A stretch of 63,875 nt of DNA, the filler included, from Blastocystis sp. subtype 4 (lineage: Eukaryota): the NCBI RefSeq assembly GCF_000743755.1. It is 51 parts of 51 records of this genome, joined end to end, with 100 filler letters (N's around TTAATTAATTAA, not from the genome) between each part and the next. Parts side by side here need not be neighbours in the genome. Positions count along the whole stretch, not along the records: positions 14,106 to 15,208 come from NW_014568593.1; positions 15,309 to 16,410 come from NW_014568592.1; positions 16,511 to 17,658 come from NW_014568590.1; positions 17,759 to 18,850 come from NW_014568589.1; positions 18,951 to 20,042 come from NW_014568588.1; positions 20,143 to 21,230 come from NW_014568587.1; positions 21,331 to 22,418 come from NW_014568586.1; positions 22,519 to 23,604 come from NW_014568585.1; 43 more parts are not named here. The stretch is one strand, 5' to 3'. The notes below the pieces were generated by a model. It had not been told where the DNA came from. It was given only the letters and a program-made list of their open reading frames with translations, and searched no databases. Shown piece after piece: positions 14,106-54,240 of this stretch. Numbering within the stretch: the stretch's first letter is position 1; each line of letters begins with the position of its first letter. A program made the translations under genes and the position numbers.

Positions 14106-15209
14106 TCAGAGGTGTTGAATATGAATTGTTGAATGAAGTGATTATTGGTGAGAATAGTCTGAGTTCATTGAGTCATTCGTGAGGAATTGAGTGTTGATTG
14201 ATGATTAGATACACAGTGAATAATCGTAATACCTTGTTGAGTATTCCTTGGGATGTAACTGCACTGACTGTAACTGCCAATTCATGTAATGATAATACCA
14301 TAAATGTGGTTGATTTGAGTTCATTCAAGTTTCTTCGAAGGGTTGTAATTGGTAAAGACTGTTTCAAGTATGTTCAGTTATTGTCGATAGTGGGACTCAA
14401 TTGGCTTGAATCAGTCAGTATTGGCACTTACAGTTTTTGGGTTGGTAGTAGTTCTTCTTTGAAGGACAGTGAGTTGAAGATTGTGAATTGTCCACAATTG
14501 AAGAGTTTGAATATCGGAGGTCGTTCATTTGATCGATACAATGGATTTGAATTGTCTCAGTTGCCTCAACTGAAATCTGTTGTAATAGATAGTGATTTTA
14601 GTTTTCGATATGTTCCTAATGTGGTATTCAGAGGTATGAATGATGGAAGAGATGGATTGTAGACTTGCCATCATTGGAGACTATTGATTTAGGATCTAAT
14701 GCCTTCCAGAATACAGAATATGTAGTATTTGAAAGTATGTGATAATAGGAATTGAACATATCAGATCTTCCTAAGTTGACAGTGTTACAGTTAGGGAATT
14801 ATTGTTTGGTTGGTTCGACTTCTACAAAGACAACTGACATTAGTCCCTATTACTATAAGAATACTCTTATCATGAGGAGTATGTATGTTAACAGTTCTAA
14901 TCATCAGATCTACCATCTTTGACAACATTAAGCATTAGATATGATAGTGTATTTGGGAATATGGGTTTTGTAACATTAGAAAGTATCACATTTGGAAGTA
15001 TCAAACAATAGATGTTCGATCACCTCTCACTATTGAAGGATCTAGTTCTTATCATTTCCAATACACTCACACTCTTGAAGTGAATAGTTGATGATTGGAT
15101 TGTTGATTGAGATGTAGATGCATCTAGTCTTGCTCAGTTGATATCATCCAGAAGTGTTTATGTGAAAGCAACAGGTGAAGTGATTGATCTCAGTTCAATT
15201 CCATTATCN
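14106..15209 (+). CDS. Variable LRR protein family A, partial
   Basis: LxxLxIGxxSF repeats; spliced through 29-31-nt introns; the ORF-track Met lies inside an intron; paralogs at 26110, 43652, 53335. Confidence 0.8.
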
Positions 15210-15308
15210 NNNNNNNNNNNNNNNNNNNNNNNNNNNNNNNNNNNNNNNNNNNTTAATTAATTAANNNNNNNNNNNNNNNNNNNNNNNNNNNNNNNNNNNN
15301 NNNNNNNN

Positions 15309-15900
15309 ATACACTCTCTTTCAAGTACTCTTTCCACTTCATTCTCCATTCTACTCCATTCATCTTCTTTGATATTGATTCAACATTATCTACTTTCATT
15401 CTCTTATTATCACTCATTAATCCTCGAATATGATCTATCTGTTCAACATTACCTGTTGCTAATTCACGGGAATCAATTCAATTCATCAATCTCTCATTTC
15501 AGCAATACCAGAAATACTCCATAATTTGATATCATTCAAACCGCGGGAATCATCTCTATTCTCATATCATATCAATACTAATTCTGTCATCATTCATACC
15601 ACAATTCGGATCTCCAATTACGCCATTCCACATTAGCCCATTTCATTCATTTCACTCCACTTCACTTACATTCATATCTCACTATTCTACTATATTCTAC
15701 TATCATCTCTTCATTCCTATTCAGTATTACTGAATACAATCACGGGAATATCAATCTCATCATTCATTACTCATATCATTCATTTCTTATTTCCATTTAT
15801 ATCTACACTCTCATATCATATCACATGTCAATCACTGTCAATCACATAAGTTGGTATCGTACATTAAGTAATGTCTGTTTCTTACAACATTATTTATTTG
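15309..15900 (+). promoter_or_regulatory. Conserved upstream region of the variable surface protein family
   Basis: Reverse-complement match to 1832-2385 and 25426-26009; C(A/G)CGGGAAT at 15465, 15542 and 15741. Confidence 0.5.
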
Positions 15901-15902
15901 AT

Positions 15903-16410
15903 ATGATTGTTGTTGATTGTAGTATCAATCATCTCATTCTATTCTTCACATTCTGTTTCATTCTTCATTCTACTCTCATTTCTAGTTATCCTTTCTTACT
16001 CTATTCAATGTTCATCTAATCAACATTATGTTAAGATCACTAAGATGACTACATATTATGCTTCTGAAGAGTCATTTGAGATTGTTTCTGGTTCTTCTGT
16101 TCTGTTCACTTCTCCTTCATTCGATGATGATCAACAATATGTGTATGAAGTCTGTTTGAATGCTTCTTCTAATCATATCTTCAATCTCGTTATGAGGGAT
16201 TCAAATGGTGATTATTGGTCTTCAGGTGCTTGGATTGAGATAGAAGGAATGAATGGAAACATTGTGTACAAGGGAATGATGACTGAAGGGAGGGTTCAAA
16301 CAGAACAGTTTTCTTTGTATTCTCCTATCAACAAGAATGATAGTTGGAAGTACACAAACAGTGTTTCAGACAATTGGAAGGATGTGAGTTATTCAGATGT
16401 TGATTGGAGT
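15903..16410 (+). CDS. Variable surface protein N-terminal module, partial
   Basis: Homolog of 1261-1800. Confidence 0.7.
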
Positions 16411-16510
16411 NNNNNNNNNNNNNNNNNNNNNNNNNNNNNNNNNNNNNNNNNNNNTTAATTAATTAANNNNNNNNNNNNNNNNNNNNNNNNNNNNNNNNNN
16501 NNNNNNNNNN

Positions 16511-17658
16511 GGGAATGATCCTCTAGCAGCCTGAGACCAACCTGATGTATCATCACCAAACCAATTGGTAGGCACTTCACCCATCTTATAATACCATTGT
16601 TCTGAATCCTTGATAGAAGGACGACGAACATAATGATGTTGAACATTACTTTCATAACCATCACATCGTCCTTTCAGAACAATCTCCTCTTCACCATCAG
16701 GCAACAGAACATACAATCGATAATAGGAATCGTAATAAGAATAAAATGAGAAGGTGAGATCAAATCGATCTACAGTAATACACAGATAATGAGTTTCTAA
16801 TCCAACTGATTCTTTAGAATGATCTGTTTGAATGTGAAAGAGGATACTCTCATTGGATGTATCACGAATAGTGATATGCTCACTCCCGTAACCATAATAT
16901 AGAGCCATGTCAATTCTGTAGACACTTCCATAACATTGAATGAATGTGAGATTGAGAATAGATTGAATGGGAGGAGTGACCATTGTTGATGTGACAGTAT
17001 ACTGTTGTGAACCGAGAGAATGAGATACACCAGAGATGATACAAGTGTTGGGATCAATACTCATTCCATCAGGAAGTGAAGGCTGAATCGAACAATCACT
17101 GTATCCATATTGAATCGGACTAATAGAAATCTGTTCATAATCCTTGTAGAATGAGTATTCTGTTTCAAGATACTCAATACTACTCACAGAAGGACGATTA
17201 CAAACAAGAAATTGAAGCTGTGATAAGCGAACTGCATCAGGATAGAATAATGAATGAATAGTGAATCGAAGAAGAGGATATCTGTGAGGAAGAGAAACAA
17301 GATCAAACTGTTTCCATTCAATTGATGTGTAAACAACATTGGATGGAGAGAGAATCATGTTCCAAGAGTCATCAGTTGATACAGATCCTTCAATAGAGAA
17401 TGAAGAAGGGTCACCGTAAGTCCATATTCGATAAGAATTGATGAGTGGGACAGAAGAATCAGAGAAATCAAACATCATCGAACTCGGTAGATTCGTGGCC
17501 ATTCCAGATGTCTCACGGTATCTCCAATCAATAATAGAACTAGGATCATAAAAGTCTGAAGAAGAGGCAGTAACATTATAAGGATAAACGAAGCAATTGT
17601 TGGTTGAAGTCATTCCAGCCAATAGAGATAAGAATCCATTGAATTGAATGATCTCTTC
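16511..17658 (-). CDS. Variable surface protein central module, copy 5, partial
   Basis: Open ORF homologous to 3764-4877. Confidence 0.75.
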
Positions 17659-17758
17659 NNNNNNNNNNNNNNNNNNNNNNNNNNNNNNNNNNNNNNNNNN
17701 NNTTAATTAATTAANNNNNNNNNNNNNNNNNNNNNNNNNNNNNNNNNNNNNNNNNNNN

Positions 17759-18850
17759 ACCCATCTTATAATACCATTGTTCTGAATGATTGATAGAAGG
17801 ACGACGAACATAATGATGATGAACATTATTCTGATCAGCATCATATCGTCCTTTCACTACCATCTCCTCTTCGCCATCAGGTAACACAGCATACATGTAA
17901 TAATATGAACCAGGAGACCAATAGGTAGAAGTGGAATAGAAGGTGACATCAAATCGATCAACATTGATACACAGATAATGAATCCACTTAACAAGCTTAG
18001 GATGTGAATGACCTGAATTGATCTGATAGATAATACTCTCATTAGATGTATCACGAATACTGAAATACTCTTTCCAAGGATAGTCCATATATGTTCGTTC
18101 AATCCTATAGACGCTTCCAGAACAGTGAATGAATGTGAGATTGAGAATAGATTGAATGGGAGGAGTGACCATTGTTGATGTGACAGTATACTGTTGTGAA
18201 CCAAGAGAATGAGATACACCAGAGATGATACAAGTGTTGGGATCAATACTCATTCCATCAGGAAGTGAAGGCTGAATCGAACAATCACTGAATCCATATT
18301 GAATCGGACTAATAGAGATATAATAATCCTTGTAGAATGAGTATTCTGTTTCAGGATACTCAATACTACTCACAGAACGATTACAAATAAGGAACTGAAG
18401 TCTTGATAAGCTAACATTATCACCATAGTAAGGGGAATGAACAGTGAATCGAAGAAGAGGATATCTGTGAGGAAGAGAAACAAGATCAAACTGATTCCAC
18501 TCAGCTGTTGTGTAACCAACATTGAATGGAGAGAGAATCATGTTCCAAGAGTCATCAGTTGATACAGATCCTTCAATAGAGAATGAAGAAGGAGAAAGCT
18601 GAGGATAATTAGAAGGCCATAATCGATAAGAATTGATGAGTGGAATAGAAGAACCAGAGAAATCAAACATCATCCAACTAGGTAGATTCTCAATATACGT
18701 ATATGAACGATAACTCCAATCAACAACACCACTAGGATCATCTATGTCAGTAGAAGAGGCAGTAACATTATAAGGATAAACGAAGCAATTGTTGGTTGAA
18801 GTCATTCCAGCCAATAGAGATAAGAATCCATTGAATTGAATGATCTCTTC
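17759..18850 (-). CDS. Variable surface protein central module, copy 6, partial
   Basis: Open ORF homologous to 3764-4877. Confidence 0.75.
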
Positions 18851-18950
18851 NNNNNNNNNNNNNNNNNNNNNNNNNNNNNNNNNNNNNNNNNNNNTTAATT
18901 AATTAANNNNNNNNNNNNNNNNNNNNNNNNNNNNNNNNNNNNNNNNNNNN

Positions 18951-19934
18951 GTGTTACAAATGATCCAGTAGAAGAAACAGAGAATAAAGGAAGAGCATAC
19001 AAATCATTGAATGGTGTAGGAGGATTTCGAACTCAAGCAGTTAGTTGTGATAAGTTGCGTGCTGTTAGAACAAAGAGATTGGCATTGTAGCATGATATTG
19101 TTTTGTTGTTGTTTGACTTTGTGTGTTCGTTTAGTCATTTGAACATGCCAGGAGTTCGTATGAGTGATTTGCGTTCGGTTCAGTTTGATGTGTGTGATGG
19201 TGATGATGAAGTAGTATCAATCGCTTCAGACATCTATACCAACATCCGTTTGAGTGTGAACGGAAGGTTTAAGTTAAACAGCATTAACTGGAAGGTTTAA
19301 GGTGCTATGCAGTTGCTCCGCAACTCGCTGATAAGTTGATGTTAGATTCTTTTCATTTTGAATCGATTAATCAATTCACCGTATTCACTTTGTATATGTA
19401 AGGAACAAACAAGTGAATACGGTGAATTCACCAATGATTGATGGATTTCTCAAAGATCGACAACCAAACCACTATAAAGGGTGTCGATATTATGGTCTGG
19501 GTGTCGATAATTGTTGAATAAACGATCTAAAAGAATGGTTGGTGAATAGTTTTATGGGGATTTTAGTGTTTTCTGGGTGTCGATGATGAGGCTAGCGTGT
19601 CGATAATTATGAAAATGATCTTAGAAAAGTGAAAAGAATTGGAGTATTCACCAATTCACTTCATTTCTCAAAAGTCTTTAAAGATCGACACCCAAACCCA
19701 TTTATCGATACCCAGATAACAATCATGGTATTATTGAGACATTACTTACAAACCATCTCCCGTATTTCTATTCAGTTATCTGAACATCAAAAATAGACCA
19801 TATTTTTGCACAGATTTAGCGGTTGTTCGTCACCCTGTTTACTTAACCATTTTTGCACATATTTATTGCGTCAGCTCAAGGAGGTGTGGCACTTGCGCCT
19901 CGCCCTCCGCAGAGCACGCATGGACTCAGGGCTC
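18951..19934 (+). mobile_element. Terminal segment of an unclassified element: ORF end, small ORF (MPGVRMSDLRS..), iteron-like repeats and GC-hairpin terminus
   Basis: Small ORF also at 29480-29578 (-); 19838-19934 matches 55343-55441 and 57790-57888 with unrelated flanks beyond ...CAGGSCTC. Confidence 0.55.
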
Positions 19935-20142: not shown

Positions 20143-21230
20143 AGATTCAAATCATGAAGAGATCATTCAATTCAATGGATTCTTATCTCTATTGGCTGGA
20201 ATGACTTCAACCAACAATTGCTTCGTTTATCCTTATCCTATTACTGCCTCTTCTACTGACTTTGATGATCCTAGTCGTGCTATTGATTGGAATAATAATT
20301 GGTCTATGTATCCAAAAAGTGTTCCAGGTTCAATGATGTTTGATTTCTCTGGTTCTTCTATTCCACTCATCAATTCTTATCGAATGAAGTTGTCTGGTCA
20401 GGGTTTTAAAGTATTCACTCTAGAAGGAGCCATCTCCACTACTTCAACATGGGTAACATTGAATTCTAAAGCCATTAACACAGATAGTGGATGGAATCAG
20501 TGGAATGTAGTGAATCCATCACAGTATCCATTGTTGAAGTTCACTGTTCAATCATCTGGTGGACTATATGAAATGCAGTTTCTTATCTGTAATCGTCTTT
20601 CTCAAGCGATCGATTATCCTGAGACACAGTATTCGTTTTTTTGTTACTATGAACAAGTCAACATTGCTCCCATTTCAATTGATTTCTTTGGTTGTTCAAT
20701 CTCACCTGCTCTTCCTGATGGAATGAGTATTGATCCCAACACTTGTATTATTTCTGGAACATCGACTGTTGCATCTCCGATGACTTCCTATCATGTAACA
20801 GCTCAAAAAGGAATAACTCAGATTCAAACATCCATCAGTATTGCTTTCACCGAATGTACTGGTGCCTATTACAAGATTGTTCGAACTTACAAGACTAGTC
20901 CTCAGGACGAGTATTTCCGAATTCGTGATTTATCCAATGATGACATTCTTTTTGAGGTTCAATCTGGTCATTCACATCCTACCAATACTGATTGGACATA
21001 TTATCTCTGTATCAATGTTGATCGATTTGATGTTTCATTCTATTCCACTTCTACCTATTGGTCATCTGGCTCCTATTTCTATTTGTATCACATGTTGCCT
21101 GAAGGAGAAGAGGAGATGGTTGTGAAAGGACGATATGATGCAAATCAAGGTAATACTCATATCCATTATGTTCGTCGTCCTTCTATCAATCATTCAGAAC
21201 AGTGGTATTATAAGATGGGTGAAGTGCCTA
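20143..21230 (+). CDS. Variable surface protein central module, copy 7 (chimeric), partial
   Basis: 5' end matches the main subfamily; the remainder resembles 12902-14005. Confidence 0.75.
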
Positions 21231-23704: not shown

Positions 23705-24790
23705 CCAACCTGATGTATCATCACCAAACCAATTGGTAGGCACTTCACCCATCTTATAATACCATTGTTCTGAATGATTGATAGAAGGACGACGAACATA
23801 ATGGATATGAGTATTACCTTGATTCGCATCATATTTTCCTTTCAGAACCATCTCTTGCTCACCATCAGGTAGCAAAAAGTACATTTGATAATGAATAATA
23901 CTAACAGCTTGGTATGTGAAGGTGACATCAAATCGATCTACAGTGATACAAAGATAATGAGTCTCAAATCCACTTGATCCCTGAGAATGACCTGGTTGAA
24001 TCTGATAGAGAATACTATCATCAGATGTGTCACGAATAGTGATTTGATCATTTCCTGAACTGTCAAGAATTACCTGATCAATCTTATAGACGCTTCCAGA
24101 ACATTGAATGAAAGTGAGATTGAGAATAGATTGAATGGGAGGAGTGACCATTGTTGATGTGACAGTATACTGTTGTGAACCGAGAGAATGAGATACACCA
24201 GAGATGATACAAATCACTGTATCCATATTGAATCGGACTAATAGAGATCTGTTCATAATCCTTGTAGAATGAGTATTCTGTTTCAAGATACTCAATACTA
24301 CTCACAGGACGATTACAAACAAGGAATTGAAGTTCATTCAGTTCAAATCTATTACCACCATAAGATGAATGAATAGTGAATCGAAGAAGAGGATATCTGT
24401 GAAGAGAAACAAGATCAAACTGTTTCCATTCATATGATGATGTATAACCAACATTGGATGGAGAGAGAATCATGTTCCAAGAGTCATCAGTTGATACAGA
24501 TCCTTCAATAGAGAATGAAGAAGGAGATAATGTAGCATCCCCAGAGAACAATCGATAAGAATTGATGAGTGGAATAGAAGAACCAGAGAAATCAAACATC
24601 ATTGAAAGTGGGAGAATCGTTGACATACCTGTACAATCCCAATCAACAGCATAACTAGGATCATAAAAGTCTGAAGAATAGGCAGTAACATGATAAGGAT
24701 AAACGAAGCAATTGTTGGTTGAGTTCATTCCAGCCAATAGAGATAAGAATCCATTGAATTGAATGATCTCTTCATGATTTGAATCTGTGA
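23705..24790 (-). pseudogene. Variable surface protein central module, copy 8, with a 50-nt frameshifting deletion in the Ig domain
   Basis: Homolog split into ORFs 24084-24737 and 23657-24295; deletion junction near 24212. Confidence 0.7.
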
Positions 24791-26109: not shown

Positions 26110-27193
26110 ACTTGAGAATAATCCTCAAACCTCAGATCCTCAACTGATAATGGAATTGAACTGAGATCAATCACTTCACCTGTTGCTTTCACATAAACAC
26201 TTTTGGATAATATCAACTGAGCAAGACTAGATGCATCTACATATCAATCAACAATACAATCATCAACTATTCACTTCAACAGTATGAGTGTATTGGAAAT
26301 GATAAGAACCATAGTCTTCAATAGTGAGAGGTGATCTAACATCTATTGTTTGATAGTTCCAAATGTGATACTTTCTAACCTTACAAAACCCATATTCTCA
26401 AACACATCATCACTAATGCTTAATGTTCCCAAAGATGGTAGATCTGATGATTAGAACTGTTAACATACATACTCCTCATGATAAGAGTATTCTTATAGTA
26501 ATAGGGAATTACATCAATTGTCTTTGTAGAAGTCGAACCAACCAAGCTCTCTCGCTGTAATCGTAACACTGTCAACTTAGGAAGATCTGATATGTTCAAT
26601 TCCTATTACCACATACTTTCAAATACTACATATTCTGCATTCCTGAAGACATAAGATTCTAAATTGATGCTTCCCAATGATGGCAAGTCTACAATCCATC
26701 TCTTTCATCATTCATACCTCTGAATACTGCATTACGAGCATATTGAAAACCATGTCCATAACCATAACTACTAGCTATTGTTACAGATATCAGTTGAGAT
26801 AACTGAGACAATTCAAATCCATTGTATCGACCAAATGAACGACCTCCAATACTCAAACTCTTCAATTGTGGACAATTCACAATCTTGAACTCACTGCCCT
26901 CCCATAATGAACCGTCACTCCCAAAACTGTATTCACCAATCCTGACTGATTCAAGCCAATTGAGTCCCACTATCGAGAATAACTGAACATACTGGAAACA
27001 GCTGTTACCAATCACAACACTTCGAAGAAACTTGAATGAACTCAAATCAACCACATATATGTTATTATCATTACATGAACTGGCAGTTACAGTTAGTGCA
27101 GTTACATACCAAGGAATACTCAACAAGGTATTGCGATTATTCACTGTGTATCTAGTCATCAATCAACACTCAATTCCTCACGAATGACTCAAT
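26110..27193 (-). CDS. Variable LRR protein family A, partial
   Basis: Homolog of 14106-15209 with the same intron positions. Confidence 0.8.
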
Positions 27194-27293: not shown

Positions 27294-28375
27294 GATTCAA
27301 CAGAAGTAGATATCTCCTTCATTTGATCGATTCTTGATATCCAGAATGCTGGTGGATGTAAGGACAATGAGCGTTCAGAAGGAGTAACGTGACTGTTGAA
27401 AATGATGTAGTATTCAAGAGCATCAGCATCTCAATCATTATCAATTTAATATATCATACTTGAACTGTTCAAAACATTCACTTCACTGAATGAGTTTTCA
27501 TTTTTCATTATACCAAAAGAATAAGTATTTCTCAATTGCATTCCTTCTGAAGTGAGTGATGGAATATCTAATTCAAATCCAATCATCAATCATCACTNNN
27601 NNNNATCACTTTCCCTATATAACTGAAGTTGCAACTTCCTTTGAAAAGAGTTAGAGAAGGAAGATCTGATCATCAGTATCATTATTATTCATACTCTTCA
27701 TTATCAATACATTCGATTCAATAGTATTGGTTTCACCTTGAAGAGCTCCCTCACTTAGAGTGATGGATTGAAGTTGATTCAGATCTCATTCATCATTCAT
27801 TCAATCATTCATACTCTCAAATACTATCCTATGACACTTCATGAATGCATGACGATCCAATTGAATAGATATGAGAGAAGGAAGATTCTTCAATTCAAAT
27901 GATTCATACCAATAGAATGAACCACGTCCAATATGGATATCTTTCAATTGATCGTCTTCTCATTGACAATTTTCAACCATNNNNNNNNNNNNNNNNNNNN
28001 NGAAGGAAGATTCTTCAATTCAAATGATTCATACCATCTGAATGACCAATATCCAATATGGATTTGTTTCAATTGATCACAATTCATTATTACACATGAG
28101 CTTCCTCTACTATTCTCATCATCGAGAGTAAAGCTCCCCTCTTCAATGATCAAACTCTCCAATTCATTCAATCCATCAATCACAAATCGATCATCTACTT
28201 CCGTAAAACAACCATCTCCAATCTCAATTCGTTTTAATGATATCAATAAATTGTTCAATATCAATGATGATATATCAGGATTGAAATGATCAGCAATAAT
28301 CAGAGATTCAACACAACTAGTAACAATCAATTCACAATCATCAATCCATTTCATTCTCATATCATCATTAACATC
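27294..28375 (-). CDS. Variable LRR protein family B, partial
   Basis: LISLKRIEIG..CF..IDGLNELESLII..IMNCDQL..ELKNLP repeats; internal N gaps; paralogs at 31083 and 47039. Confidence 0.7.
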
Positions 28376-30756: not shown

Positions 30757-31082
30757 NNNNNNNNNNNNNNNNNNNNNNNNNNNNNNNNNNNNNNNNNNNN
30801 TTAATTAATTAANNNNNNNNNNNNNNNNNNNNNNNNNNNNNNNNNNNNNNNNNNNNCTACTCGAGATGTTGCTAGTAATCTGAAGAATGAAGCGATTGAT
30901 CAAGTGAATGGTACAGGAAGTGTATTTGGAGGTGGATCTGTTGTTTCAAGTGTAGTTTGTCATCCTGTTAACTGCTCATCATTTAGTGTTAGAAAGTATG
31001 TTTTACTTTGTTCAGACCATTTGACTGATTACTTAACCATCCTTGCATCGATTATTAACAAACACTTTAGTATTCCCCTCAT

Positions 31083-31930
31083 TTACAGATAATCACTCTT
31101 CTGTCGAATGAATCGATCAAGTGAATTGGCATCTCAATCAATAGCAATCAATCAATCATACTTGAACTATGCAATTCTTGAACATTATTGAATGGTATGA
31201 TATATTCCTTTCTTAACTGAATTCCTTCTTCAGTGAGTAGCATAATGTCTATGTCAAATGCAACCATCATTCATCACCATTACCTATATACCTGAAATTC
31301 GAACCCTCTCCTTTGAATACAGATAGAGAAGGGAGATCTCATCAATCAATCATCATCATTCATACTCTTCATTTTCAATTCATTCGATTCAGTAGTAGCA
31401 GAATCACAATCAAGAGCCTCTAATCCAAGGGTGATAGATCCAAGTCGAGTCAGATCTCATTCATCATTCATTCAATCATTCATACTCTCAAATACTATCC
31501 TATGACACAACTGGAATACAAAGCCGTCCAATTGAATGAATATGAGAGAAGGAAGATTCTTCAATTCAAGTGATTCATACTCATAGAATGAGCCCATTCC
31601 AGTGTGGATTTCTCTCAGTTTATCACAATTCATTATCAAGCATTTGCTTCCTTCTCGATTATTCTCATCGAAACAGAAGCTATCATGTCTAATGATGATA
31701 GTCTCCAATTCATTTAATCCATCAATCTCAAATCGACTCACTTTCTTGAAACAATCATTTCCAATCTCAATTCGTTTCAATGATATCAATGAATTGTTCA
31801 ATATCAATGATGATATATCAGGATTGAAACCATAACCAATAATCAGAGATTCAACACAACTAGTAACAATCAATTCACAATCATCAATCCATTTCATTCT
31901 CATATCATCATTAACATCAATAATAACATC
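31083..31930 (-). CDS. Variable LRR protein family B, 3' part
   Basis: LRR repeats, phase-1 introns, ends ..LDRFIRQKSDYL*; TGTTTGTT downstream. Confidence 0.75.
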
Positions 31931-39282: not shown

Positions 39283-40320
39283 TCACAGATTCAAATCATG
39301 AAGAGATCATTCAATTCAATGGATTCTTATCTCTATTGGCTGGAATGAACTCAACCAACAATTGCTTCGTTTATCCTAATAATATTGATGGTCCTGGTGA
39401 TGCTATTAATTGGGACATATCTGGAGCTGGCATTTGGAGTCAACCTATATCATTCATATTTAATTTCTCTGGTTCTTCTATTCCACTCATCAATTCTTAT
39501 CGATTCTACTATTGGGATGCTACATTATCTCCTTCTTCATTCTCTATTGAAGGATCTGTATCAACTGATGACTCTTGGAACATGATTCTCTCTCCATTCA
39601 ATGTTGCTTACACAGGAGATGGATGGAAACAGTTTGATCTTGTTTCTCTTCCTCACAGATATCCTCTTCTTCGATTCACTGCTCATTCATCTTATAGTGG
39701 TTATGTTCTCTTATCAGAACTTCAGTTCCTTGTTTGTAATCGTCCTGTGAGTAGTATTGAGTATCCTGAAACAGAATACTCATTCTACAAGGGTTATCAT
39801 ACCTCTGTTAGTCCGATTCAATATGGATACAGTGATTGTTCGATTCAGCCTTCACTTCCTGATGGAATGAGTATTGATCCCACCACTTGTATCATCTCTG
39901 GTGTATACTGTCACATCAACAATGGTCACTCCTCCTATTCAATCTATTCTCAATCTCACATTCATTCAATGTTCTGGAACTGTCTATAGGATTGATCAGA
40001 TTATTCGTTATGAATATGATCAAATCACTATTCGTGATTCATCCAATGAGAGTATCCTCTATCAGATTCAAGCTGACCATTCTCAGGGATCAAATGGATT
40101 TGAGAGTCATTATCTCTGTATCACTGTCGATCGATTTGATGTCACATTCTCATCTTATTCTTACTCTAGCTCTTATTATCGAATGCATTCTTTGTTGCCT
40201 GATGGTGAAGAGGAGATGGTTGTGAAAGGACGATATGATGCTGATCAGAATAATGTTCATCATCATTATGTTCGTCGTCCTTCTATCAATCATTCAGAAC
40301 AATGGTATTATAAGATGGGT
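39283..40320 (+). pseudogene. Variable surface protein central module, copy 9, with a 26-nt frameshifting deletion
   Basis: Homolog of 3764-4877; deletion between GTAT repeats at about 39903. Confidence 0.7.
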
Positions 40321-40420: not shown

Positions 40421-42141
40421 GTTATCTTGATACTTGGTCGATCTCTCCTGCTCTGCCTAATAATCTGGTGTTTGATACTACTACTGGTGTCATTAGTGGT
40501 CGTCTTCAGAATGAAATGAGTGGGGTCCAATTCACTGTGACTGCTTCTAGTAGTTATGGAAGTATTACTGAAACAATTACTATTTCTTCTGTGATTGTGA
40601 ATTGTGAAGCAACTGATGTTTATCCTGCTACAAATCATGGAGACTATGCTATTACTAGTTGTCCTCAGTATTACATTGGTTATGGAATGAGTCAGTGCTT
40701 GGGAGGTGTATTTGAGGAACTTGATTTGACACATTGTGCTGTACGTGAAGCCACTATCTTCACTTATGCCATGTCTTCTCTGTCTGTAAAGACAGGTGTG
40801 GCGATAGAGCCCATGACATTGATGGTGGATTCTTTGTTCACTGGTTTCACAATCTCTCCAGATCTGCCTAATGGTCTGATGTTCTCAGAGGATGGTTCGA
40901 TCTCTGGAACTGCTACTGAACCTTCTACTGTCACTGTGTACACGATTAGTGGTATTAGTGCTGGTGGTAATAAGGAAACAACGTTGAGCATTGAAGTGAT
41001 TGATTACAGTTGTGCTGCTCTGGATTCTTTCTCTGCTGCTGCTAATGGAGCCACATCCTCTTCTACTACAGAGTGTCCTGCATATATGCATGGTACTGCT
41101 ACTCGTCTGTGTACAAATGGTGTGTTTGGACCTATCAATACCTCGAACTGTGTGTATGATGATATCACAGGATTCCACTATACTCCTAGTACCATTAGTG
41201 TGACTTCAGGTGAGGGTATTGTATCTTCAGATCCTGAGTATACTGGTTATGCCAGTTCGTTTATGGCTGTGGGTTCTTTGCCTTCTGGTTTGACTCTGAC
41301 TTCGACTGGTGTTATTGTGGGTGTTCTAAAGGAGACTGGTTCTTTCACCATCACAGTGAGAGCTAGCAATGAGAATTCTCAAGTCACAACCAATCTGGTC
41401 ATCACTGTATCTGCTGTTTCGTGTACTGGTGTGAATGGTATCACTGTTGCCAATGGAGATAGATTGATGGTACAGTGTCCTACAGATATGGAGGGAGAGG
41501 CTTTCCGAACTTGTACAAATGGTGTATTGAGTAGTGTGGATGTGAGTGGTTGTACTTACATGGTACCTAGCAATTTGACTTATGCAACTACTGTCTTTGT
41601 GATGACTACTGAGCATTCTTATGTGATTCCTCGTCCTGGTGTTGAGCATGTTGTGTCTGAATTCTCTGTGGAACCTGAACTTCCTAGTGGTTTGGTTCTT
41701 GAGACTAATGGACGTATTCAAGGTACTCCTACTACTGCTACTGCTACTGCCGATTATGTGGTGACTGCTAGTAATGAGAAAGGAAGTTGTACAGCCACTT
41801 TAACGATTACAGTTGAGTTGCCCAAGTGTGATGCCATGAAAGATTTCCCTGCTACAACAGTTGGTGAGAGTTACACTCTGGATTGTACAACGATTGAAGG
41901 TTATAAGGGAACGAGTACACGTACTTGTGTTGAGGCTGGAATTGGTCTGGCAAAGTGGGATAAACCTTCTTTCTGTATTGAGAGCAAGATGGATTTGTCC
42001 TTCGTGATCGGGATCATTCTGATTATTGTTGGTATGATCATAGTAGTACTGACAGTAATCTCAGTAAGCAAGACAAACAATGTGTCGCCACATCCTGTTT
42101 ATGTGTATGATCTAGTGTATCATATGGAAATACCAATGTAG
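40421..42141 (+). CDS. Surface protein C-terminal stalk: alternating He_PIG-type Ig and Cys-rich repeats, then a transmembrane helix (type I membrane protein), partial
   Basis: LPxGLxxxxxGxIxGTP Ig repeats, CPxxxxGxxxRxCxNG repeats, TM FVIGIILIIVGMIIVVLTVISV. Confidence 0.8.
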
Positions 42142-42506: not shown

Positions 42507-43551
42507 AATCTATCTCCATTGGCAACAGTGATACCATTCACACCAGTACACGAAACAGCAGATACAGTGATGACCAGATTGGTTGTGACTTGAGAATTCT
42601 CATTGATAGCTCTCACTGTGATGGTGAAAGAACCAGTCTCCTTTAGAACACCCACAATAACACCAGTTGAAGTCAGAGTCAAACCAGAAGGCAAAGAACC
42701 CACAGCCATAAACGAACTGGCATAACCAGTATACTCAGGATCTGAAGATACAATACCCTCACCTGAAGTCACACTAATGGTACTAGGAGTATAGTGGAAT
42801 CCTGTGATATCATCATACACACAGTTCGAGGTATTGATAGGTCCAAACACACCATTCGTACACAGACGAGTAGCAGTACCATGCATATATGTAGGACACT
42901 CTGTAGTAGAAGAGGATGTAGCTCCATTAGCAGCAGCAGGGAAAGAATCCAGAGCAGCACAACTGTAATCAATCACTTCAATGCTCAACGTTGTTTCCTT
43001 ATTACCACCAGCACTAATACCACTAATCGTGTACACAGTGACAGTAGAAGGTTCAGTAGCAGTTCCAGAGATCGAACCATCCTCTGAGAACATCAGACCA
43101 TTAGGCAGATCTGGAGAGATTGTGAAACCAGTGAACAAAGAATCCACCATCAATGTCATTGGCTCTATCGTCACACCTATCTTTACAGACAGAGAAGACA
43201 TGGCATAAGTGAAGATAGTGGCTTCACGTACAACACAATGTGTCAGATCAAGTTCCTCAAACACACCTCCCAAGCACTGACTCATTCCATAACTAATGTA
43301 ATACTGAGGACAACTAGTAATAGCATACTCTCCATGATTTGTAGCAGGATAAACATCAGTTGCTTCACAATTCACAATCACAGAAGAAATGATAATCGCT
43401 GCACTCATACTTCCATAACTACTAGAAGCAGTCACAGTGAATTTGACTTCATTCATTTCATTCTGAAGACGACCACTAATGACACCAGTAGTAGTATCAA
43501 ACACCAGATTATTAGGCAGAGCAGGAGAGATCGACCAAGTATCAAGATAAC
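42507..43551 (-). CDS. Near-identical paralog or allele of the 40421 stalk, partial
   Basis: Same start point and only scattered substitutions relative to 40421-41465. Confidence 0.8.
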
Positions 43552-43651: not shown

Positions 43652-44684
43652 AATAGTCTGAGTTCATTGAGTCATTCGTGAGGAATTGAGTGTTAATTGA
43701 TGACTAGATACACAGTGAATAATCGCAATACCTTGTTGAGTATTCCTTGGTATGTAACTGTACTGACTGTAACTGACAATTCATGTAATGAAGATAACAT
43801 TAATGTAGTTGATTTGAGTTCATTCAAGTTTCTTCGAAGTGTTGTGATTGGTAATAACTGTTTCCATTATGTGCAGGTGTTCTCGATAGTTGGACTCAAT
43901 TGGCTTGAATCAGTCAGTATTGGTTATAGAAGTTTTGATAGCAGTACTTTGGTGGATGGAAGTCAGTTCAAGATTGTGAATTGTCCACAATTGAAGAGTT
44001 TGAGTATTGGTGGTTGGTCGTTTGGTCGATACAATGGATTTGAATTGTCTCAATTGCCTCAACTGAAATCTGTAGTAGTGAGTCATTATAATAATGGTTA
44101 TGGGACTTATTATGGTTCTTTTGTTTATACTCGTAATGCAGTATTCAGAGGTATGAATGATGGAAGAGATGGATTGTAGACCTGCCATCATTGGAGACTA
44201 TTGATCTAGGAAATGATGTCTTCCAGAATGCAGAATATGTAGTATTTGAAAGTATGTGGTAATAGGAATTGAACATATCAGATCTTCCTAAGTTGACAGT
44301 GTTACGATTACGGAGTTATTGCTTGGTTGGTTCGACTTCTACAAAGACAACTGATGTAATTCCCTATTACTATAAGAATACTCTTATCATGAGGAGCATG
44401 TATGTTAACAGTTCTAATCATCAGATCTACCATCTTTGACAATAAGCATTAGTGCTGATGTGTTTGAGAATATGGGTTTTGTAAGGTTAGAAAGTATCAC
44501 ATTTGGAACTATCAAACAATAGATGTTAGATCACCTCTCCCTTTCAGTATTGAAAATTCTAACCCATTCCAATACACTCACACTCTTGAAGTGAATAGTT
44601 GATGATTGTATTGTTGATTCAGATGTAGATGCATCTAGTCTTGCTCAGTTGATATCATCCAGAAGTGTTTATGTGAAAGCAACA
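43652..44684 (+). CDS. Variable LRR protein family A, partial
   Basis: Homolog of 14106-15209. Confidence 0.8.
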
Positions 44685-47038: not shown

Positions 47039-48069
47039 GAAAGATGAAGTATTGTGGTTGTTATTATGATGGATTGAAGAATGGATATGGATTATTGTAT
47101 GATCGAAATGGAATGATTGAATATGAAGGACTATTCAGAGATGATGTTGTTATTGATGTTAATGATGATATGAGAATGAAATGGATTAATGATTGTGAAT
47201 TGATTGTTACTAGTTGTATTGAATCTCTGATTATTGATGATCATTTCAATCGACCTGATATATCATCATTGATACTGAACAATTCATTGATATCATTGAA
47301 ACGAATTGACATTGGAAAGGGTTGTTTTACGGAAATAGATCGATTTGTGATTGATGGATTGAATGAATTGGAGAGTTTGATCATTGAAGAGGGGAGCTTT
47401 ACTCTCCATGATGAGAATAGTAGAGGAAGCTCATGTTTGATAATGAATTGTGATCAATTGAGTGAAATCCATATTGAAGATTGGTCATTCTATTGGTATG
47501 AATCATTTGAATGTAAGAATCTTCCTTCTCTTATATCTATTCAATTGGATAAGAGCGTATTCTATTGGTGTCATGGGGTAGTATTTGATAGTTTGAATGA
47601 TTGACTAATTGATGAATGAGATCTGGTTCGACTTCAATCCATCACTCTTGGAACATGGGCACTTGATGGTGATGAATATAGTGTTGAATCAAATGAATTG
47701 ATAATGAAGAGTATGAATGATGATAATTGATTGATGAGATCTTCCTTCTCTATCACTGATTAAAGGAAACTATGGTAATTTCTGTCGTATAGGCAAAGTT
47801 CAATTGGAAAGTAATGATTGATGATTGTATTTGAATTAGACATTTCATCACTGAGTGAAGAAGGAATTGAGATGGAATACAGAGATAAACCATTTGAAGG
47901 GGTAAGAGAATTGCATAGTTCAAGTATGATTGATTGATTGTTAATGAATGAGATGCTGATTGTCTTGATAGATTCATTCGGCAGCAAAATGAGTATCTAC
48001 TGGTGATAGATGAAGAATACGATTCTAGTAAAGCAAAACGATTTGAATATGCAAATGCACATGATTTGA
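47039..48069 (+). CDS. MORN-like repeat + LRR protein family B, partial
   Basis: KYCGCYYDGLKNGYGLLYDRNGMIEYEGLF (MORN-like) followed by family B LRRs with phase-1 introns. Confidence 0.7.
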
Positions 48070-48169
48070 NNNNNNNNNNNNNNNNNNNNNNNNNNNNNNN
48101 NNNNNNNNNNNNNTTAATTAATTAANNNNNNNNNNNNNNNNNNNNNNNNNNNNNNNNNNNNNNNNNNNN

Positions 48170-49887
48170 CGACGAATTGCGAAAGGAACGCAAAGAACAT
48201 AGAGACCAATTAAAGCAATTGGAATACACATGAGAAGAGTAACAGCATGATAAGAATATTCTGGTTTCAATTGATACAACCACCCTGATAGCAAAGGACC
48301 AAGGAATGCACCCAGACCATACATTCCAGACATAACACAATAGAGGCCAGCAGGATTCTTTGTGAAGAGAATGACAGCAAGAGCACATCATCTAATGCTC
48401 CCAAAATATTCGTTCCAATAAACTGGGTGATCATAATTAACCAGAATTTGTCAGTGAAAGCAGTACCAACACAACCCAAAATGGAAATCACGAAAGAGAG
48501 AACAAATGGAATCTTGAATCCAACATATTGAATCATAATTGCAGTTAAACAGGCCCAAATGAGATATGAGAATTGACCCATACTTTCGAGGGCTCCATAC
48601 TCTACATATGAGATCTGTTTTCATGAGAGGATACGTTACAGACCTCATCGTGTCTGCAAGTCCATTAGCTATCACACACAAAAAAAGAGTAATCGTGAGA
48701 AGCCAGAAGGCAGTCTTCGATATAGTGTTCTCTTCTGAAGGGACAGCTACTTTAGTTTCAGTGTTGTTATTACTGGACTCGACAGGAGCAATAGTTTGAC
48801 GTATTTTCACTCATGAAGACAAAATCGATTCTTTACGGAGCGCAAAATACCTTTTTGAACCAGGGGATCCAATGGATTCAATTAATAATATTGTTACTAG
48901 CTACTGATTGGATGATATGGAACCGGCGTTATGGCCAGATTAGAATAGAGAGTCTAGAAGAATGGAGGAATATACGAAATTGGAAGTAGATGAAATAAGG
49001 AGTTGGATAGTTCTTAATGGAAATGGACTGTGAAGAGAGAAGCAACTCAAGTCTTGAGAAGAAATTGGATTCAAAGAAGATAAACGAAGTTAAAAAACAA
49101 CAATTCTATTAGTTTACATCAAATTAGTGGTTGTAGGAAAGAAGCAGAGTAGGTCTTAAACAAATACTATAAACTTCACCATTTAACAAAGCTTCTTGTT
49201 CTTTCTTTTCCTTTCTTCTTGTTAAGATATGGAAATAGATGAACATCAACAAACCCAGAAGACCTCCAGGTACAGACATCCAATAAGCATATTGAGGTCC
49301 ATAACGCTCATTCATTACTCCCAATCCATATTGAATAACCATTCCAACCAAAGACTGAAGAGGCAATAAACAAGCCACAGGAATTGAAGATTCCTTTCCC
49401 CAATAATGTGTGTATGCGATAATAAATGTAGGCCAGAATAAGGAAACAAAGAATCCTAAGAAAGGAAGAATGTAGATTCCCGTTTTGCCTGCTAAGAAAC
49501 CAATCACATAGATGAGAGTACCAATTGGAATGATGATATATTCCATTTTGAATGGTCCTACTCGATCTGTGATGAAACCACCAACNNAAGCAGAAGTAGA
49601 AGCGAGAATTGAGAGCAGCTCCATCTTCATCTGTTAGATGAAGAACATCTTTCACATACATTGTACCCCAACTCAAAGTACCACGTTCTGCTGTAGCCAT
49701 GAAGTTTAACATGATAGCACAATACCAAATGAGAGGAGAACGCAAACAAGACCAAACGTTAATGGAACTGTTTGGTTTTGTTTGAGGACGACGAATTGCG
49801 AAAGGAACGCAAAGAACATAGAGACCAATTAAAGCAATTGGAATACACATGAGAAGAGTAACAGCATGATAAGAATATTCTGGTTTC
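48170..49887 (-). CDS. MFS transporter; contig holds the 3' half of one tandem copy (49171-49887) and the 5' half of the next (48170-48810), with frameshifts
   Basis: Multiple TM helices, GGFITDRVG motif A, YGLGAFLGPLLSG; 48170-48268 equals 49789-49887. Confidence 0.75.
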
Positions 49888-49987
49888 NNNNNNNNNNNNN
49901 NNNNNNNNNNNNNNNNNNNNNNNNNNNNNNNTTAATTAATTAANNNNNNNNNNNNNNNNNNNNNNNNNNNNNNNNNNNNNNNNNNNN

Positions 49988-50902
49988 TTGATGCCATTTC
50001 CCTTAGGAAGAGAGACCATGGGTTCAGCTCCCTCACCAATCACGAACACATTGGAGAGACGAGTGGCGAACTCATGTCCAGCAGCATCTCTCACATGGAC
50101 AATATCGAAGGAACCGAAGTGGCGATCACGACGAACAATCACACCCACACGTCCAGTGTTGTGTCCCTTTGTGATGAAACACAGATTACCAGCTTCGAAC
50201 TTCACATGACCCACAATCTTGTTCGTTCGCAGATCAACCTTCACCGTATCGTTCACCTTCACCATAGGATCAGGATAACGAATAGTGCGAGCATCATGAG
50301 TCACAATGAAAGGAATCTTCTTAGACGACAGTTGACGCTTCACAACCTTGCACAGCTTGAACTACACATTATCACTCTCAATCATACACACTCCAGCCTC
50401 CTTCTCGTCAATGCGGTGGAGAACGAAACGACCCTTCACATCATACAACAGACGGAAGCGATCGCTAGAACCTTCCAGAGTCACAACATCTACAGTCTCA
50501 ACAACACTACACACACCTTACCCATGAAACCAGCAGGGAAAGTAGAGTCAGTACGCACCTTTCCGTCCACCTTCACAAGACGCTGCATGCAAATCATCTT
50601 CACCTCGTGATTTGTCAGAGCATACTTCAGACGGTTACGGATGATCAGAAGAAGAGGAAGACACTCTCTCATCTTATGAGGACCACAACTGGGATGAGGA
50701 GCCCACACACCTCCCATCTTGTTAAGCATCCAGTGCTTAGGGGCATTCAAACGCTTCAAATGCTTCTTAGGGCCGCGAGTCTACAGAGATATTACAAATG
50801 AAGTTCAAGAGTCTAGGAAACCCAACTTCCTTGAAAGCAATCACAATCACATTCATGGATTTGGGACAAACGTATCAGGAGTAGAAGACACAAACATACC
50901 AT
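49988..50902 (-). CDS. RPS4: 40S ribosomal protein S4 (eS4), 3' truncated
   Basis: [58 protein letters not shown] alone before a 119-nt intron. Confidence 0.97.
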
Positions 50903-51109
50903 ATTGGAGTAAGAATTCTGCTCTTGGAATTGTGAAGCAGAGAATCGAATTGATACACCTTGATTGATAATAAGCCTACAATTTTTAGAGATTAGTCATT
51001 TTACCCCTTNNNNNNNNNNNNNNNNNNNNNNNNNNNNNNNNNNNNNNNNNNNNTTAATTAATTAANNNNNNNNNNNNNNNNNNNNNNNNNNNNNNNNNNN
51101 NNNNNNNNN

Positions 51110-51472
51110 GAACCTTCTTTCCAGTGCTTTCATCTCCAGTCAAAACCTTTACCAGATTCTCAGGAGATACTTCTGTCTTCTCATAATCCACAACAACACC
51201 AGCATAGATATCACGAGCATCATCACCAGGGAAAGGATTGAACTGATCATAAGGAACATCGTTGAACATCAGTAATAATGTGGTCAGGATCAATACCTCC
51301 ACCCTTCACAATCTGATAAGCGTGCGAACTATAGAATGAGAAATATGAATAAAATGTACATATCAGCATGATGACGGTAATTGCTGTAACCTTCAGATCC
51401 ACACACCAACACAATCCAGTTAGTAGCTGAGGCCAATGCCAATACCAGCAAAGCAATTGAAAGGGATTTCAT
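51110..51472 (-). CDS. LGMN: Legumain (C13 asparaginyl endopeptidase), N-terminal part, with a frameshift and small deletion
   Basis: Signal peptide, NWIVLVCGSEGYSNYRHHADI.HAYQIV, NPFPG, DIYAGVVVDY..VSPEN. Confidence 0.85.
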
Positions 51473-53334
51473 AGTCTACAAAAGAATGAGCAATAGTATC
51501 GAGAATTGCTCAACGGATGGTAGTATCGGAACACTTCATCGCCGAAAATAGTCTTGAAAAGTGGAAGTACTGGTGACACACTCCCTCTGATGAGGATACG
51601 AACACTCTTTTTCACAACTAATTATTCTGCGGATTTAAAGCAGGGTATCCTATAGTCATTTTATAAGGAGTTCTTTCGCATGGTCCAAATTAGCTGCTCG
51701 AGAATGGTAATAAGAGACTATTCAATAATGTAATCCATTTTTGAGAGCCCCTTGCATAGGAGCAACTGGATATTAAACGACATGATCTAATAAACCATAA
51801 GTCAGAGTACCGATCTTATAGTTCCAAGTGAATGACAACTATCACCTCCAATCTGTCATACTATTACAAGTTACTAATAGAATATGATATATAATAGAGT
51901 GGAGGGTATGGTAGTATATTGCATAGTATGAATACATATTCTATCACAAGTACTTCATAAAGTAGGATTGAATCTATTACTGTACTTATGAGGGTTTGAT
52001 GGAATTGTGAATGTGAACAAACAGATCAATGAAGTGGTTCAATTCCAAATGCATATCCAGCAATTCCTCCATAATTGGCATTCGTTTCAGAAGAAGTCAT
52101 TGGAAGTCTGAGTTGGATAGGTTCACNNNNNNNNNNNNNNNNNNNNNNNNNNNNNNNNNNNNNNNNNNNNTTAATTAATTAANNNNNNNNNNNNNNNNNN
52201 NNNNNNNNNNNNNNNNNNNNNNNNNNGAATGAATATAGGATTAATGAAAGTGTCAAAAAGAGATTGAATGAATCTAGTCTTTGAATGAGTAATAGTAGTG
52301 ATATTGAATACTGTTGTTTGAATGATAGCAATTATGAGGTTTCTTTCTTGGATTGATAGTGAAAGCAACATGATTCTTCACTGTCTATTCTGAAACAATC
52401 CATTTCTCTTAGTATCAACTGATTGAATGAATACAAGAATGTATGTCCAAAGAATCCAGAATCTGTTTCAGAATAGAGAGAATGCATTTGAATACTCTGT
52501 CATTGTTAGATGGATTCTTGGTGACTATTAGATGCCTCTGTGTTAAAGAGGAGAGTGTATTGAATATTCTACACATCTGCTGTTACTACTTCATAATTCA
52601 TGTTCTTAAGATGATTTTGAGCCACAGTAGAATCAAGAATGATTGTTCCATTTTCTAGTCCACTCTTCTATTATTGTATTCATGAGATCATCCAGTTTAT
52701 CCATTTTGATATGATGCAGAATCCTTCAATCAATCCTCTTCCTATCTGTATTTGTAGTTCAATGAGAGGAGGATTCATTTGTGATTTGACTCTTCTTGTT
52801 TGTTCTATTCATGATTCTCAAATTGAATAGAAGATGAGAGAATCGTTGAATAAGAGTTCTTTGATCTAATATCAATGAAATGAACTGTTATCATTCTATC
52901 AGTTTTCACAGATTCATTGTAACTCTATTCAAATAGAACTAGAAACGATAACACTAGGTGTTGACTGATAGTATGAGATGGAATATTGGTTTATTAGAAT
53001 GAAATCAAGAACTGAATCTCGATATTGGATTGAATTCTATCATTATGAACAATGGTTGATTGATAATGATCTATTGAATTCAAGAGAATGTTATTGTTTG
53101 ACTCATAAGATATGTGATGAATACTTGATTGGATTGAGTGAATATGTTCTAGAGATACAAGAGGAATACAGTGAAATCCAAAGTGTCTAGATTGATTCAG
53201 TGTTTCAGAAGTGCTGTTAGTGGCAGTAAGTTGGNNNNNNNNNNNNNNNNNNNNNNNNNNNNNNNNNNNNNNNNNNNNTTAATTAATTAANNNNNNNNNN
53301 NNNNNNNNNNNNNNNNNNNNNNNNNNNNNNNNNN

Positions 53335-54240
53335 GTTGAATGAAGTGATTATTGGTGAGAATAGTCTGAGTTCATTGAGTCATTCGTGAGGAATTGAGTG
53401 TTGATTGATGACTAGATACACAGTGAATAATCGTAATACCTTGTTGAGTATTCCTTGGTATGTAACTGCACTGACTGTAACTGCCAATTCATGTAATGAA
53501 GATACCATTAATGTGGTTGATTTGAGTTCATTCAAGTTTCTTCGAAGTGTTGTGATTGGTAATGAATGTTTCAAGTATGTTCGGATATTGTCGATAGTTG
53601 GACTCAATTGGCTTGAATCAGTCAGTATTGGTTATAGAAGTTTTGGGAGTGATGGTTCATTATTGGTGGGCAGTGAGTTCAAGATTGTGAATTGTCCACA
53701 ATTGAAGAGTTTGAGTATTGGATATCGTTCATTTGGTCGATACAATGGATTTGAATTGTGTCAGTTACCTCAACTGAAATCTGTTGTAATAGATAATAGT
53801 GCTGATGGTTTTTGTTTTCGATATGCTCGTAAAGCAGTATTCAGAGGTATGAATGATGGAAGAGATGGATTGTAGACTTGCCATCATTGGAGACTATTGA
53901 TCTAGGATCTTATGCCTTCCAGAATGCAGAATATGTGGTATTTGAAAGTATGTGATAATAGGAATTGAACATATCAGATCTTCCTAAGTTGACAGTGTTA
54001 CGATTAAAGCACTTGTGTATGGAGGGTTCGACTTCTACAAAGACAACTGATGTAATTCCCTATTACTATAAGAATACTCTTATCATGAGGAGTATGTATG
54101 TTAAGAGTTCTTATCATCAGATCTACCATCTTTGAGGACACTAAGCATTAGTAGTGGAGTATTTGGGAATATGGGTTTTGTAAGGTTAGAAAGTATCACA
54201 TTTGAAACTATCAAACAATAGATATTAGATCACCTCTCAA
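53335..54240 (+). CDS. Variable LRR protein family A, partial; homology breaks at about 54241
   Basis: Homolog of 14106-15209. Confidence 0.78.

What the first reader, a model, noticed from the sequence alone, without database searches (positions are those of the whole stretch)
14106..54240. VLR-like variable LRR family: introns conserved, exonic loops hypervariable, one CDR3-like insert
Seen: four family A copies (14106, 26110, 43652, 53335) have near-identical introns (gtatgaatgatggaagagatggattgtag is identical in three and differs by one base in the fourth). Residues after each IG vary (KD/NS/NN/NE; TY/EY/YR/YR; GR/GR/GW/YR). One loop varies in length and sequence: DSDFSF, ASSYGYGHGF, SHYNNGYGTYYGSF, DNSADGFCF. 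Introns being more conserved than adjacent codons implies diversifying selection or targeted diversification. The layout parallels lamprey VLRs (variable LRR face plus protruding insert), by analogy only.
Basis: partly seen in the sequence, partly recalled or inferred. Interest (0 to 1): 0.8.

Follow-up and report, generated by a model that had tools for sequence, protein, structure and literature searches.

The report
Variable-tip surface LRR family in Blastocystis
The four pieces are the variable tips of a gene family, present in at least eleven copies in the gut protist Blastocystis subtype 4, predicted to make long cell-surface rods with a nearly identical stalk and a tip whose binding loops were likely diversified by selection and by swapping DNA between copies; they are inherited variants, not antibody-like receptors shown to be assembled in each cell.

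Summary
The sequence details are confirmed; the interpretation needs revising. The window is not a gene cluster but size-sorted ~1 kb contigs joined by linkers. The four copies are distal fragments of a 2,133-aa, predicted type II membrane LRR protein of Blastocystis ST4. A long-read ST4 assembly carries at least 11 copies on 10 contigs, with stalks 98-99.8% identical and tips about 77-85% identical. Variable residues share one loop face, not the VLR-type beta-sheet face. Introns are not specially conserved: they equal framework silent sites (8/102 vs 5/62), while silent changes pile up beside loops (18/46), which points to block exchange between copies. Each window variant recurs letter for letter elsewhere (long-read strain, or 10-18 metagenome contigs), so the repertoire is inherited, and the 'CDR3' loop is a fixed vocabulary of about 17 words. 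Over 100 mosaic variants in metagenomes may be real recombinants or assembler chimeras; this is unresolved. It is not a VLR. It works like plant type I resistance-gene families. My searches found no description of it in Blastocystis.

The parts
14106..15208 (+). Copy A: distal fragment (7 exon pieces, 6 introns) of the LRR surface-protein gene; equals the BT1 copy P0001
   Evidence: 252/254 aa; P0001's model runs into intron 5 at its end
14209..14633 (+). Copy A main variable exon (five LRR turns)
14588..14605 (+). Copy A long-loop word DSDFSF
14634..14662 (+).
   Evidence: splicing inferred from frame and GT-AG, not shown by RNA
26110..27193 (-). Copy B: distal fragment; equals the BT1 copy P0181; its main exon also stands on 14 ENA contigs
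   Evidence: 296/301 aa; P0181's model sets one intron boundary differently
26746..26775 (-). Copy B long-loop word ASSYGYGHGF (main exon 26718-27151; intron 26689-26717)
43652..44684 (+). Copy C: distal fragment; main exon 43708-44150 recurs exactly on 18 ENA contigs; intron 44396-44424 is GC-AG
44081..44122 (+). Copy C long-loop word SHYNNGYGTYYGSF
53335..54238 (+). Copy D: distal fragment; main exon 53416-53846 recurs exactly on 10 ENA contigs
53792..53818 (+). Copy D long-loop word DNSADGFCF
54238..54338 (.). ~100-bp repeated element that cuts copy D off (insertion, deletion junction or misjoin); 90% identical to L013:11413-11512

Best explanation
The four contigs are the variable distal ends of an inherited, dispersed multigene family of Blastocystis ST4 (at least 11 copies) that is predicted to encode 2,100-residue type II membrane LRR rods, whose stalk, framework and introns are likely kept uniform by gene conversion between copies while selection likely preserves and reshuffles different loop blocks on one face of the tip to give a panel of binding specificities. 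Shown: multi-copy state, near-identical stalk, loop-confined variation, recurrence of the variants, a site class with omega>1, and incompatible site patterns. Predicted: topology (one hydrophobic helix at 122-152, 11 K/R before it and 2 after) and fold. Inferred: gene conversion as the mechanism. Inferred: adhesion or recognition (gut bacteria, their glycans or mucus) rather than antibody escape, because 1,400 invariant extracellular residues would remain exposed. Expression and ligand were not shown.
For: Organism and copy number: BT1 (ST4, long-read) proteins of this gene lie on 10 different contigs, two copies on one of them. Six BT1 stalk segments are 407-414/415 identical. Full gene model on L013: 18 exons, 2,133 aa, variable exon starting at residue 1584. 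Among 15 loci with the start codon, upstream DNA diverges at 456, 703, 891 and 1691 bp, i.e. several full-length loci. Diversity is 0-0.002 in most windows of the first 5.2 kb (a few up to 0.014), 0.05-0.10 at 6.0-7.0 kb and 0.06 at 7.5-8.0 kb. Inherited repertoire: 4 of 4 window variants and 5 of 7 BT1 variants recur exactly in other records, the latter on 12-22 ENA contigs. Each loop has 15-19 words seen twice or more among 119 of 120 listed variants. Selection. One face: entropy 0.86 in the strand1-to-strand2 loop vs 0.26, 0.38 and 0.14 elsewhere; Y/W/G/S/D/N make up 53% of variable vs 36% of conserved positions. Block exchange: silent changes at invariant codons beside loops 18/46 vs 5/62 further away; informative sites split 15/10/10 over the three possible trees; 33-67% of site pairs beyond 3 aa are four-gamete incompatible among the 7 long-read variants.
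Against: Incompatibility does not fall at short distance in the strict set (0.42 vs 0.46, p=0.31), and the runs test on the four copies is not significant (p=0.10), so recurrent substitution could mimic conversion. 42% of amino-acid-changing codon pairs differ at 2-3 bases (115/272), which inflates site-model omega. No expression evidence: the long pieces listed for the one RNA run laid (X20) ran without gaps through predicted introns, and BT1 gene models are fragmentary. The transmembrane start was seen only in collapsed metagenome contigs, not checked in BT1. BT1 is not described as clonal (10.64898/2026.10.19.760120, passages), so some copies may be haplotypes or strains. Structure output gave secondary structure only, so 'one face' rests on repeat register.
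Confidence: 0.65

Rival explanations
1. Active antigenic-variation or receptor-diversification system: one or a few copies are expressed and are continually patched by short-tract gene conversion from the other copies, as in Borrelia vlsE or Anaplasma msp2 (recalled), so new mosaics arise within a host.
For: 118 distinct five-loop combinations among 119 variants, built from a small vocabulary; linkage 0.5-0.9 within loops and at most 0.3 between them. 19 of 21 metagenome loci are mosaics of recurrent variants, one matches exactly and one (L022) is a divergent relative. 18 of 18 complete CDS are distinct and intact. L024 and L025 carry pseudogene tracts inside intact context. BT1 variant P0164 has no exact match among the listed records.
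Against: Whole exons recur unchanged on 10-24 contigs and in a long-read strain. BT1 copies carry the stalk on 8 of 10 contigs, so they are not bare cassettes. Short-read assemblers are expected to splice such near-identical copies in the ~40-nt conserved spacers. The substitution spectrum is ordinary (kappa about 2; no deaminase or adenine-only bias).
Confidence: 0.2
2. Immune-evasion by birth-and-death: a family of antigenically different surface coats selected by host IgA, with no special binding role.
For: Positive selection on exposed loops; gut habitat; a second surface-type family in the window shows the same signature.
Against: Variation is confined to one face of the last quarter of the protein; the stalk is 98-99.8% identical, and the variable residues have a paratope-like composition.
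Confidence: 0.1
3. The four contigs are alleles of one locus from a mixed-strain or heterozygous sample, under balancing selection.
For: All 26 close metagenome loci share the same flanks; Blastocystis is diploid (PMC10690189, passage), and single-host cultures can hold several strains (10.64898/2026.10.19.760120, passages).
Against: A and B sit on different contigs of one long-read assembly that has at least 11 copies; upstream contexts differ.
Confidence: 0.05

Closest known systems
Plant type I NBS-LRR resistance genes (lettuce RGC2, rice Pi2/9)
   Same: Multi-copy LRR genes with frequent sequence exchange, diversifying selection and LRR units giving discordant trees (PMC3782705 and PMC3492116, passages). 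That their introns are more uniform than their exons is recalled, not seen in a call.
   Different: No NB-ARC domain matched by Pfam in the parts scanned; predicted extracellular type II membrane rod; copies dispersed over 10 contigs rather than clustered; variation on a loop face.
Lamprey and hagfish variable lymphocyte receptors
   Same: LRR solenoid with a variable surface and a length-variable loop.
   Different: VLRs use an incomplete germline gene, flanking cassettes, somatic assembly by cytidine deaminases, a concave beta-strand binding face and an LRRCT loop (PMC12264053, passages). Here the genes are complete, the variants inherited, the variation off the strand face, and the long loop is internal.
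BspA-like (LRR_5) surface proteins of Trichomonas, Entamoeba, Histomonas
   Same: Expanded surface LRR families of gut or mucosal protists (recalled; listings); P0181 just passes the LRR_5 cut-off (27.9 vs 27.7 bits).
   Different: Match is marginal, and LRR_8 fits P0001 better (60.8 bits); TpLRR structure is not a good fold match; near-identical stalk with a variable tip.
Ectocarpus ROCO LRR genes (stramenopile)
   Same: LRR diversifying selection, exon-level repeats and a proposed adaptive-like repertoire in a stramenopile (PMC3341825, abstract and outline).
   Different: ROCO GTPases with one repeat per exon and exon shuffling; here five turns share one exon and exchange is sub-exonic.
Segmental gene-conversion antigens (Borrelia vlsE, Anaplasma msp2; recalled)
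   Same: Variants look like patchworks of a limited set of blocks.
   Different: No single expression site or truncated cassette archive was shown; whole variants are stable across hosts.

Membership tests
Variable lymphocyte receptor (VLR) | Incomplete germline gene plus flanking LRR donor cassettes | tested here: not met
   Complete 2,133-aa frame on L013; BT1 copies carry stalk and tip
Variable lymphocyte receptor (VLR) | Somatic assembly giving a non-inherited repertoire | tested here: not met
   4 of 4 window variants recur exactly in other records; extra somatic mosaics not excluded
Variable lymphocyte receptor (VLR) | Hypervariable concave beta-strand face | tested here: not met
   Entropy 0.26 on the main strands vs 0.86 in the following loop
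Variable lymphocyte receptor (VLR) | Signal peptide, LRRNT/LRRCT caps with the protruding loop in LRRCT, C-terminal stalk | tested here: not met
   N-terminal membrane helix, none at the C-terminus; the long loop lies inside the repeat array
Variable lymphocyte receptor (VLR) | AID/APOBEC deaminase dependence | not testable with these tools
   No genome held; spectrum among intact copies shows no deaminase bias
LRR solenoid protein | Tandem ~24-aa repeats folding as a parallel beta solenoid | tested here: met
   Pfam LRR_8 60.8 bits on P0001; model pLDDT 81 with two strands per turn; the listed Foldseek hits of the 686-aa model are LRR proteins, but TM-scores are only 0.14-0.30; the 147-aa model had no hit at E<=0.001
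BspA/TpLRR family | Clear LRR_5 repeats and TpLRR fold | tested here: inconclusive
   27.9 bits vs cut-off 27.7 for P0181 only; TpLRR 6mlx E=1.2
Type I-like rapidly evolving multigene family | Multiple paralogs | tested here: met
   At least 11 copies on 10 BT1 contigs
Type I-like rapidly evolving multigene family | Diversifying selection on exposed repeat residues | tested here: met
   with the multi-nucleotide caveat
Type I-like rapidly evolving multigene family | Sequence exchange between paralogs | tested here: inconclusive
   Incompatible sites and shared blocks; distance-decay test not significant in the strict set (p=0.31)
Expression-site/cassette antigenic variation | One expressed locus, silent donors, new mosaics within a clone | not testable with these tools
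   No raw reads or spliced RNA obtained; metagenome mosaics may be chimeras

The most novel reading that the evidence does not exclude
Blastocystis ST4 runs a live combinatorial receptor system: 15-20 dispersed, near-identical LRR rod genes exchange single loop blocks by short gene conversion within hosts, producing the 100-plus mosaic tips seen in gut metagenomes, while a strand-specific C-to-G mutator acting on the same tip region retires copies (or triggers the conversion). This would be an antibody-like diversification system in a single-celled gut eukaryote.
Probability: 0.15. Interest if true: 0.88.

Novelty: new member of a known kind. Interest (0 to 1): 0.52.

Why it matters
How Blastocystis attaches to or recognises anything in the gut is largely open (own knowledge). 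This gives a concrete, testable candidate: a defined panel of tip variants on a constant stalk, in a subtype described as practically clonal in humans (PMC12418315, passage). It also shows that short-read assemblies collapse these genes and leave the informative domains in the unplaced tail. If the mosaics prove real, it would be a new diversification system.

Tried and rejected
Single hypervariable locus: my first reading; dropped. Truncated silent donors plus one expression site: not supported, as BT1 copies carry the stalk. Special intron conservation: rejected. Deaminase or retroelement-type mutagenesis of intact copies: spectrum unremarkable. Metagenome mosaics as proof of ongoing diversification: not accepted, because assembler chimeras fit equally. 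Expression: runs X1, X5, X8 and X20 are contigs only; no intron-skipping joint was listed, which is no evidence either way. Runs with a small share of words were not used for habitat. Rows dropped: 8 of 26 loci lacking a complete, stop-free region plus L021-L024 and L026, in all 12 of 26, were left out of the 18-CDS set; 37 gapped or indel-adjacent codons of 247 were left out of site models; only the best 120 of 349 protein hits were listed, 119 parsed; cluster listings show at most 15 members each; 5 of 9 contigs were used in the putative-Ig control. No own genome. The wide structural search and the representatives search never ran, so the LRR subclass and distant relatives stay open. Three look-ups of earlier findings returned nothing. 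Literature searches listed no paper on this family; two Blastocystis genome papers have 0 main-text hits for 'leucine' or 'LRR'. Their supplements were not read and may list these genes.
Full report
1. The window. It consists of about 50 pieces of 1.0-2.0 kb, mostly in falling size, separated by 100-bp N linkers; GC is 34%. It is the unplaced tail of a short-read assembly, so neighbourhood within it means nothing. Introns of 29-31 nt and a protein of Blastocystis sp. BT1 matching copy A identify the organism as Blastocystis; BT1 is ST4, assembled from long reads, with a diploid signal (PMC10690189, passages).

2. Observation. All quoted motifs and residues are present. Pairwise intron divergence is 0.028-0.041, dN 0.10-0.13 and dS 0.13-0.19. 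The contrast is not intron versus exon but loop versus everything else: in the four copies, silent sites away from variable codons segregate at 5/62, intron cores at 8/102 (p=1.0), and silent sites at invariant codons directly beside variable ones at 18/46 (p=1e-5). In the 18-sequence set the figures are 7/50, 8/102 and 13/45.

3. The whole gene. A metagenome scan gave 29 loci, 26 of them close, all sharing flanks. On L013 the gene has 18 exons and 2,133 codons: a short basic N-terminus, one hydrophobic segment (windows 122-152; 11 K/R before, 2 after), then LRR-like repeats to the end. That predicts a type II membrane rod. The window's fragments correspond to roughly residues 1560-1890. Diversity is near zero over the first 5.2 kb and peaks at 0.05-0.10 over the window's region, with a second peak near the C-terminus.

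4. Paralogs, not alleles. The shared flanks first suggested one locus. BT1 protein records refute this: pieces of the gene lie on 10 contigs of different length, two copies on one contig, and six stalk segments are 407-414/415 identical. A matches the copy on one contig and B the copy on another. Upstream DNA of 15 loci diverges at four breakpoints. The metagenome contigs are therefore collapsed repeats.

5. A fixed repertoire. For the main exon, B, C and D recur exactly on 14, 18 and 10 ENA contigs, and 5 of 7 BT1 variants on 12-22 contigs. Among 119 parsed variants each loop has 15-19 words seen at least twice, and 89-98% of sub-loop words are reused; the 'CDR3-like' loop has 17 recurrent words and 13 singletons. 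This fits some 15-20 inherited variants and not junctional diversity.

6. Mosaics. 118 of the 119 variants have a unique five-loop combination (they are representatives of 90% clusters, which favours uniqueness), and only 1 of 21 metagenome loci equals a recurrent variant; 117 of 251 other sequences can be tiled wholly from the 24 trusted ones. Assembler chimeras and real recombinants both predict this, and I could not separate them. Among long-read and recurrent variants alone, blocks are shared with changing partners and 40-55% of site pairs are incompatible (11 sequences), the three trees of A-D get 15/10/10 sites, and silent changes hug the loops. Historical exchange is thus likely, although the distance-decay test (p=0.31) and the runs test (p=0.10) are not significant.

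7. Selection and structure. My own M1a/M2a implementation on 210 codons gave p=7.9e-8 for the four copies on one tree, 2.5e-4 with per-repeat trees (omega2 about 7 on 6% of sites), and 4e-22 for 18 sequences, some probably chimeric. Multi-base codon changes (115/272) inflate such tests. The model of exon C (pLDDT 81) has two strands per turn; variable positions lie in the loop from the main strand to the second (entropy 0.86; 30 of 66 positions high) rather than on the main strands (0.26), second strands (0.38) or return loop (0.14). They share a face by repeat register, but not the face VLRs use (PMC12264053, passages). Fold searches return LRR proteins at low TM-score; Pfam gives LRR_8 and a marginal LRR_5.

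8. Control. Five contigs of a putative-Ig-domain family in the same window also favour M2a (p 6e-11; 1e-4 segmented). The tail of this assembly is enriched in variable domains of collapsed surface-protein families.

9. Mechanism. Most likely, ectopic gene conversion homogenises stalk, framework and introns across dispersed copies, while selection keeps distinct loop blocks and occasionally recombines them, as described for plant type I resistance genes (PMC3782705, PMC3492116, passages). A constant stalk with a variable, Tyr/Gly/Asp/Asn-rich face at the distal end fits a panel of adhesins or receptors better than antibody escape. Ligand, expression and localisation are untested.

10. Oddity. 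L025 carries a 350-bp tract in which 31 of 39 coding-strand C are G and no G is C, with stops. A version with many of the same C-to-G changes appears in 4 of 4 laid runs, so such damaged copies seem widespread. The cause is unexplained.

11. Novelty and verdict. Six searches listed no description of this family; supplements were not read. The feature is real, not a VLR, and a new member of a known evolutionary kind. Interest 0.52; 15% chance of a live diversification system.

Noticed in passing
L025:5354-5700; end of L024; runs X1, X5, X8, X20 on L013:5995-7455: Damaged copy of the tip region with strand-specific C-to-G change (31 of 39 C, 0 G-to-C) and stop codons; similar version in 4 of 4 laid runs. 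The stalk's coding strand is also very C-poor (1-10% C in most windows).
   Followed up: partly
window 3764-4877, 6191-7303, 8615-9716, 12902-14005, 16511-17658, 17759-18850, 20143-21230, 23705-24790, 39283-40320: Putative Ig-domain (He_PIG) family, nine contigs, with aromatic-rich variable loops and a positive-selection signal in the five tested; two contigs have stops in every frame.
   Followed up: partly
window 27294-28375, 30857-31930, 47039-48069, 54439-55441: A second LRR family with short introns; three of the contigs match P0001 at 35-44%, copies 66-92% identical in DNA.
   Followed up: no
window 54238-54338; L013:11413-11512 and 9104-9192: ~100-bp repeated element, possibly a transposon end, cutting copy D and present downstream of several loci.
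   Followed up: partly
window 44396-44424: GC-AG intron in copy C where the other copies have GT-AG.
   Followed up: no
L013:5006-5969; P0181 C-terminus: Copy-number variation of a 93-aa stalk module (5' part 1,489 vs 1,582 aa) and of one 24-aa repeat near the C-terminus.
   Followed up: no
L022:2357-2785: More divergent relative (78-89% DNA identity in the main exon), perhaps another ST4 clade or an older paralog.
   Followed up: no
window 40421-41465 vs 42507-43551: Two 97.6% identical contigs of a long He_PIG protein.
   Followed up: no
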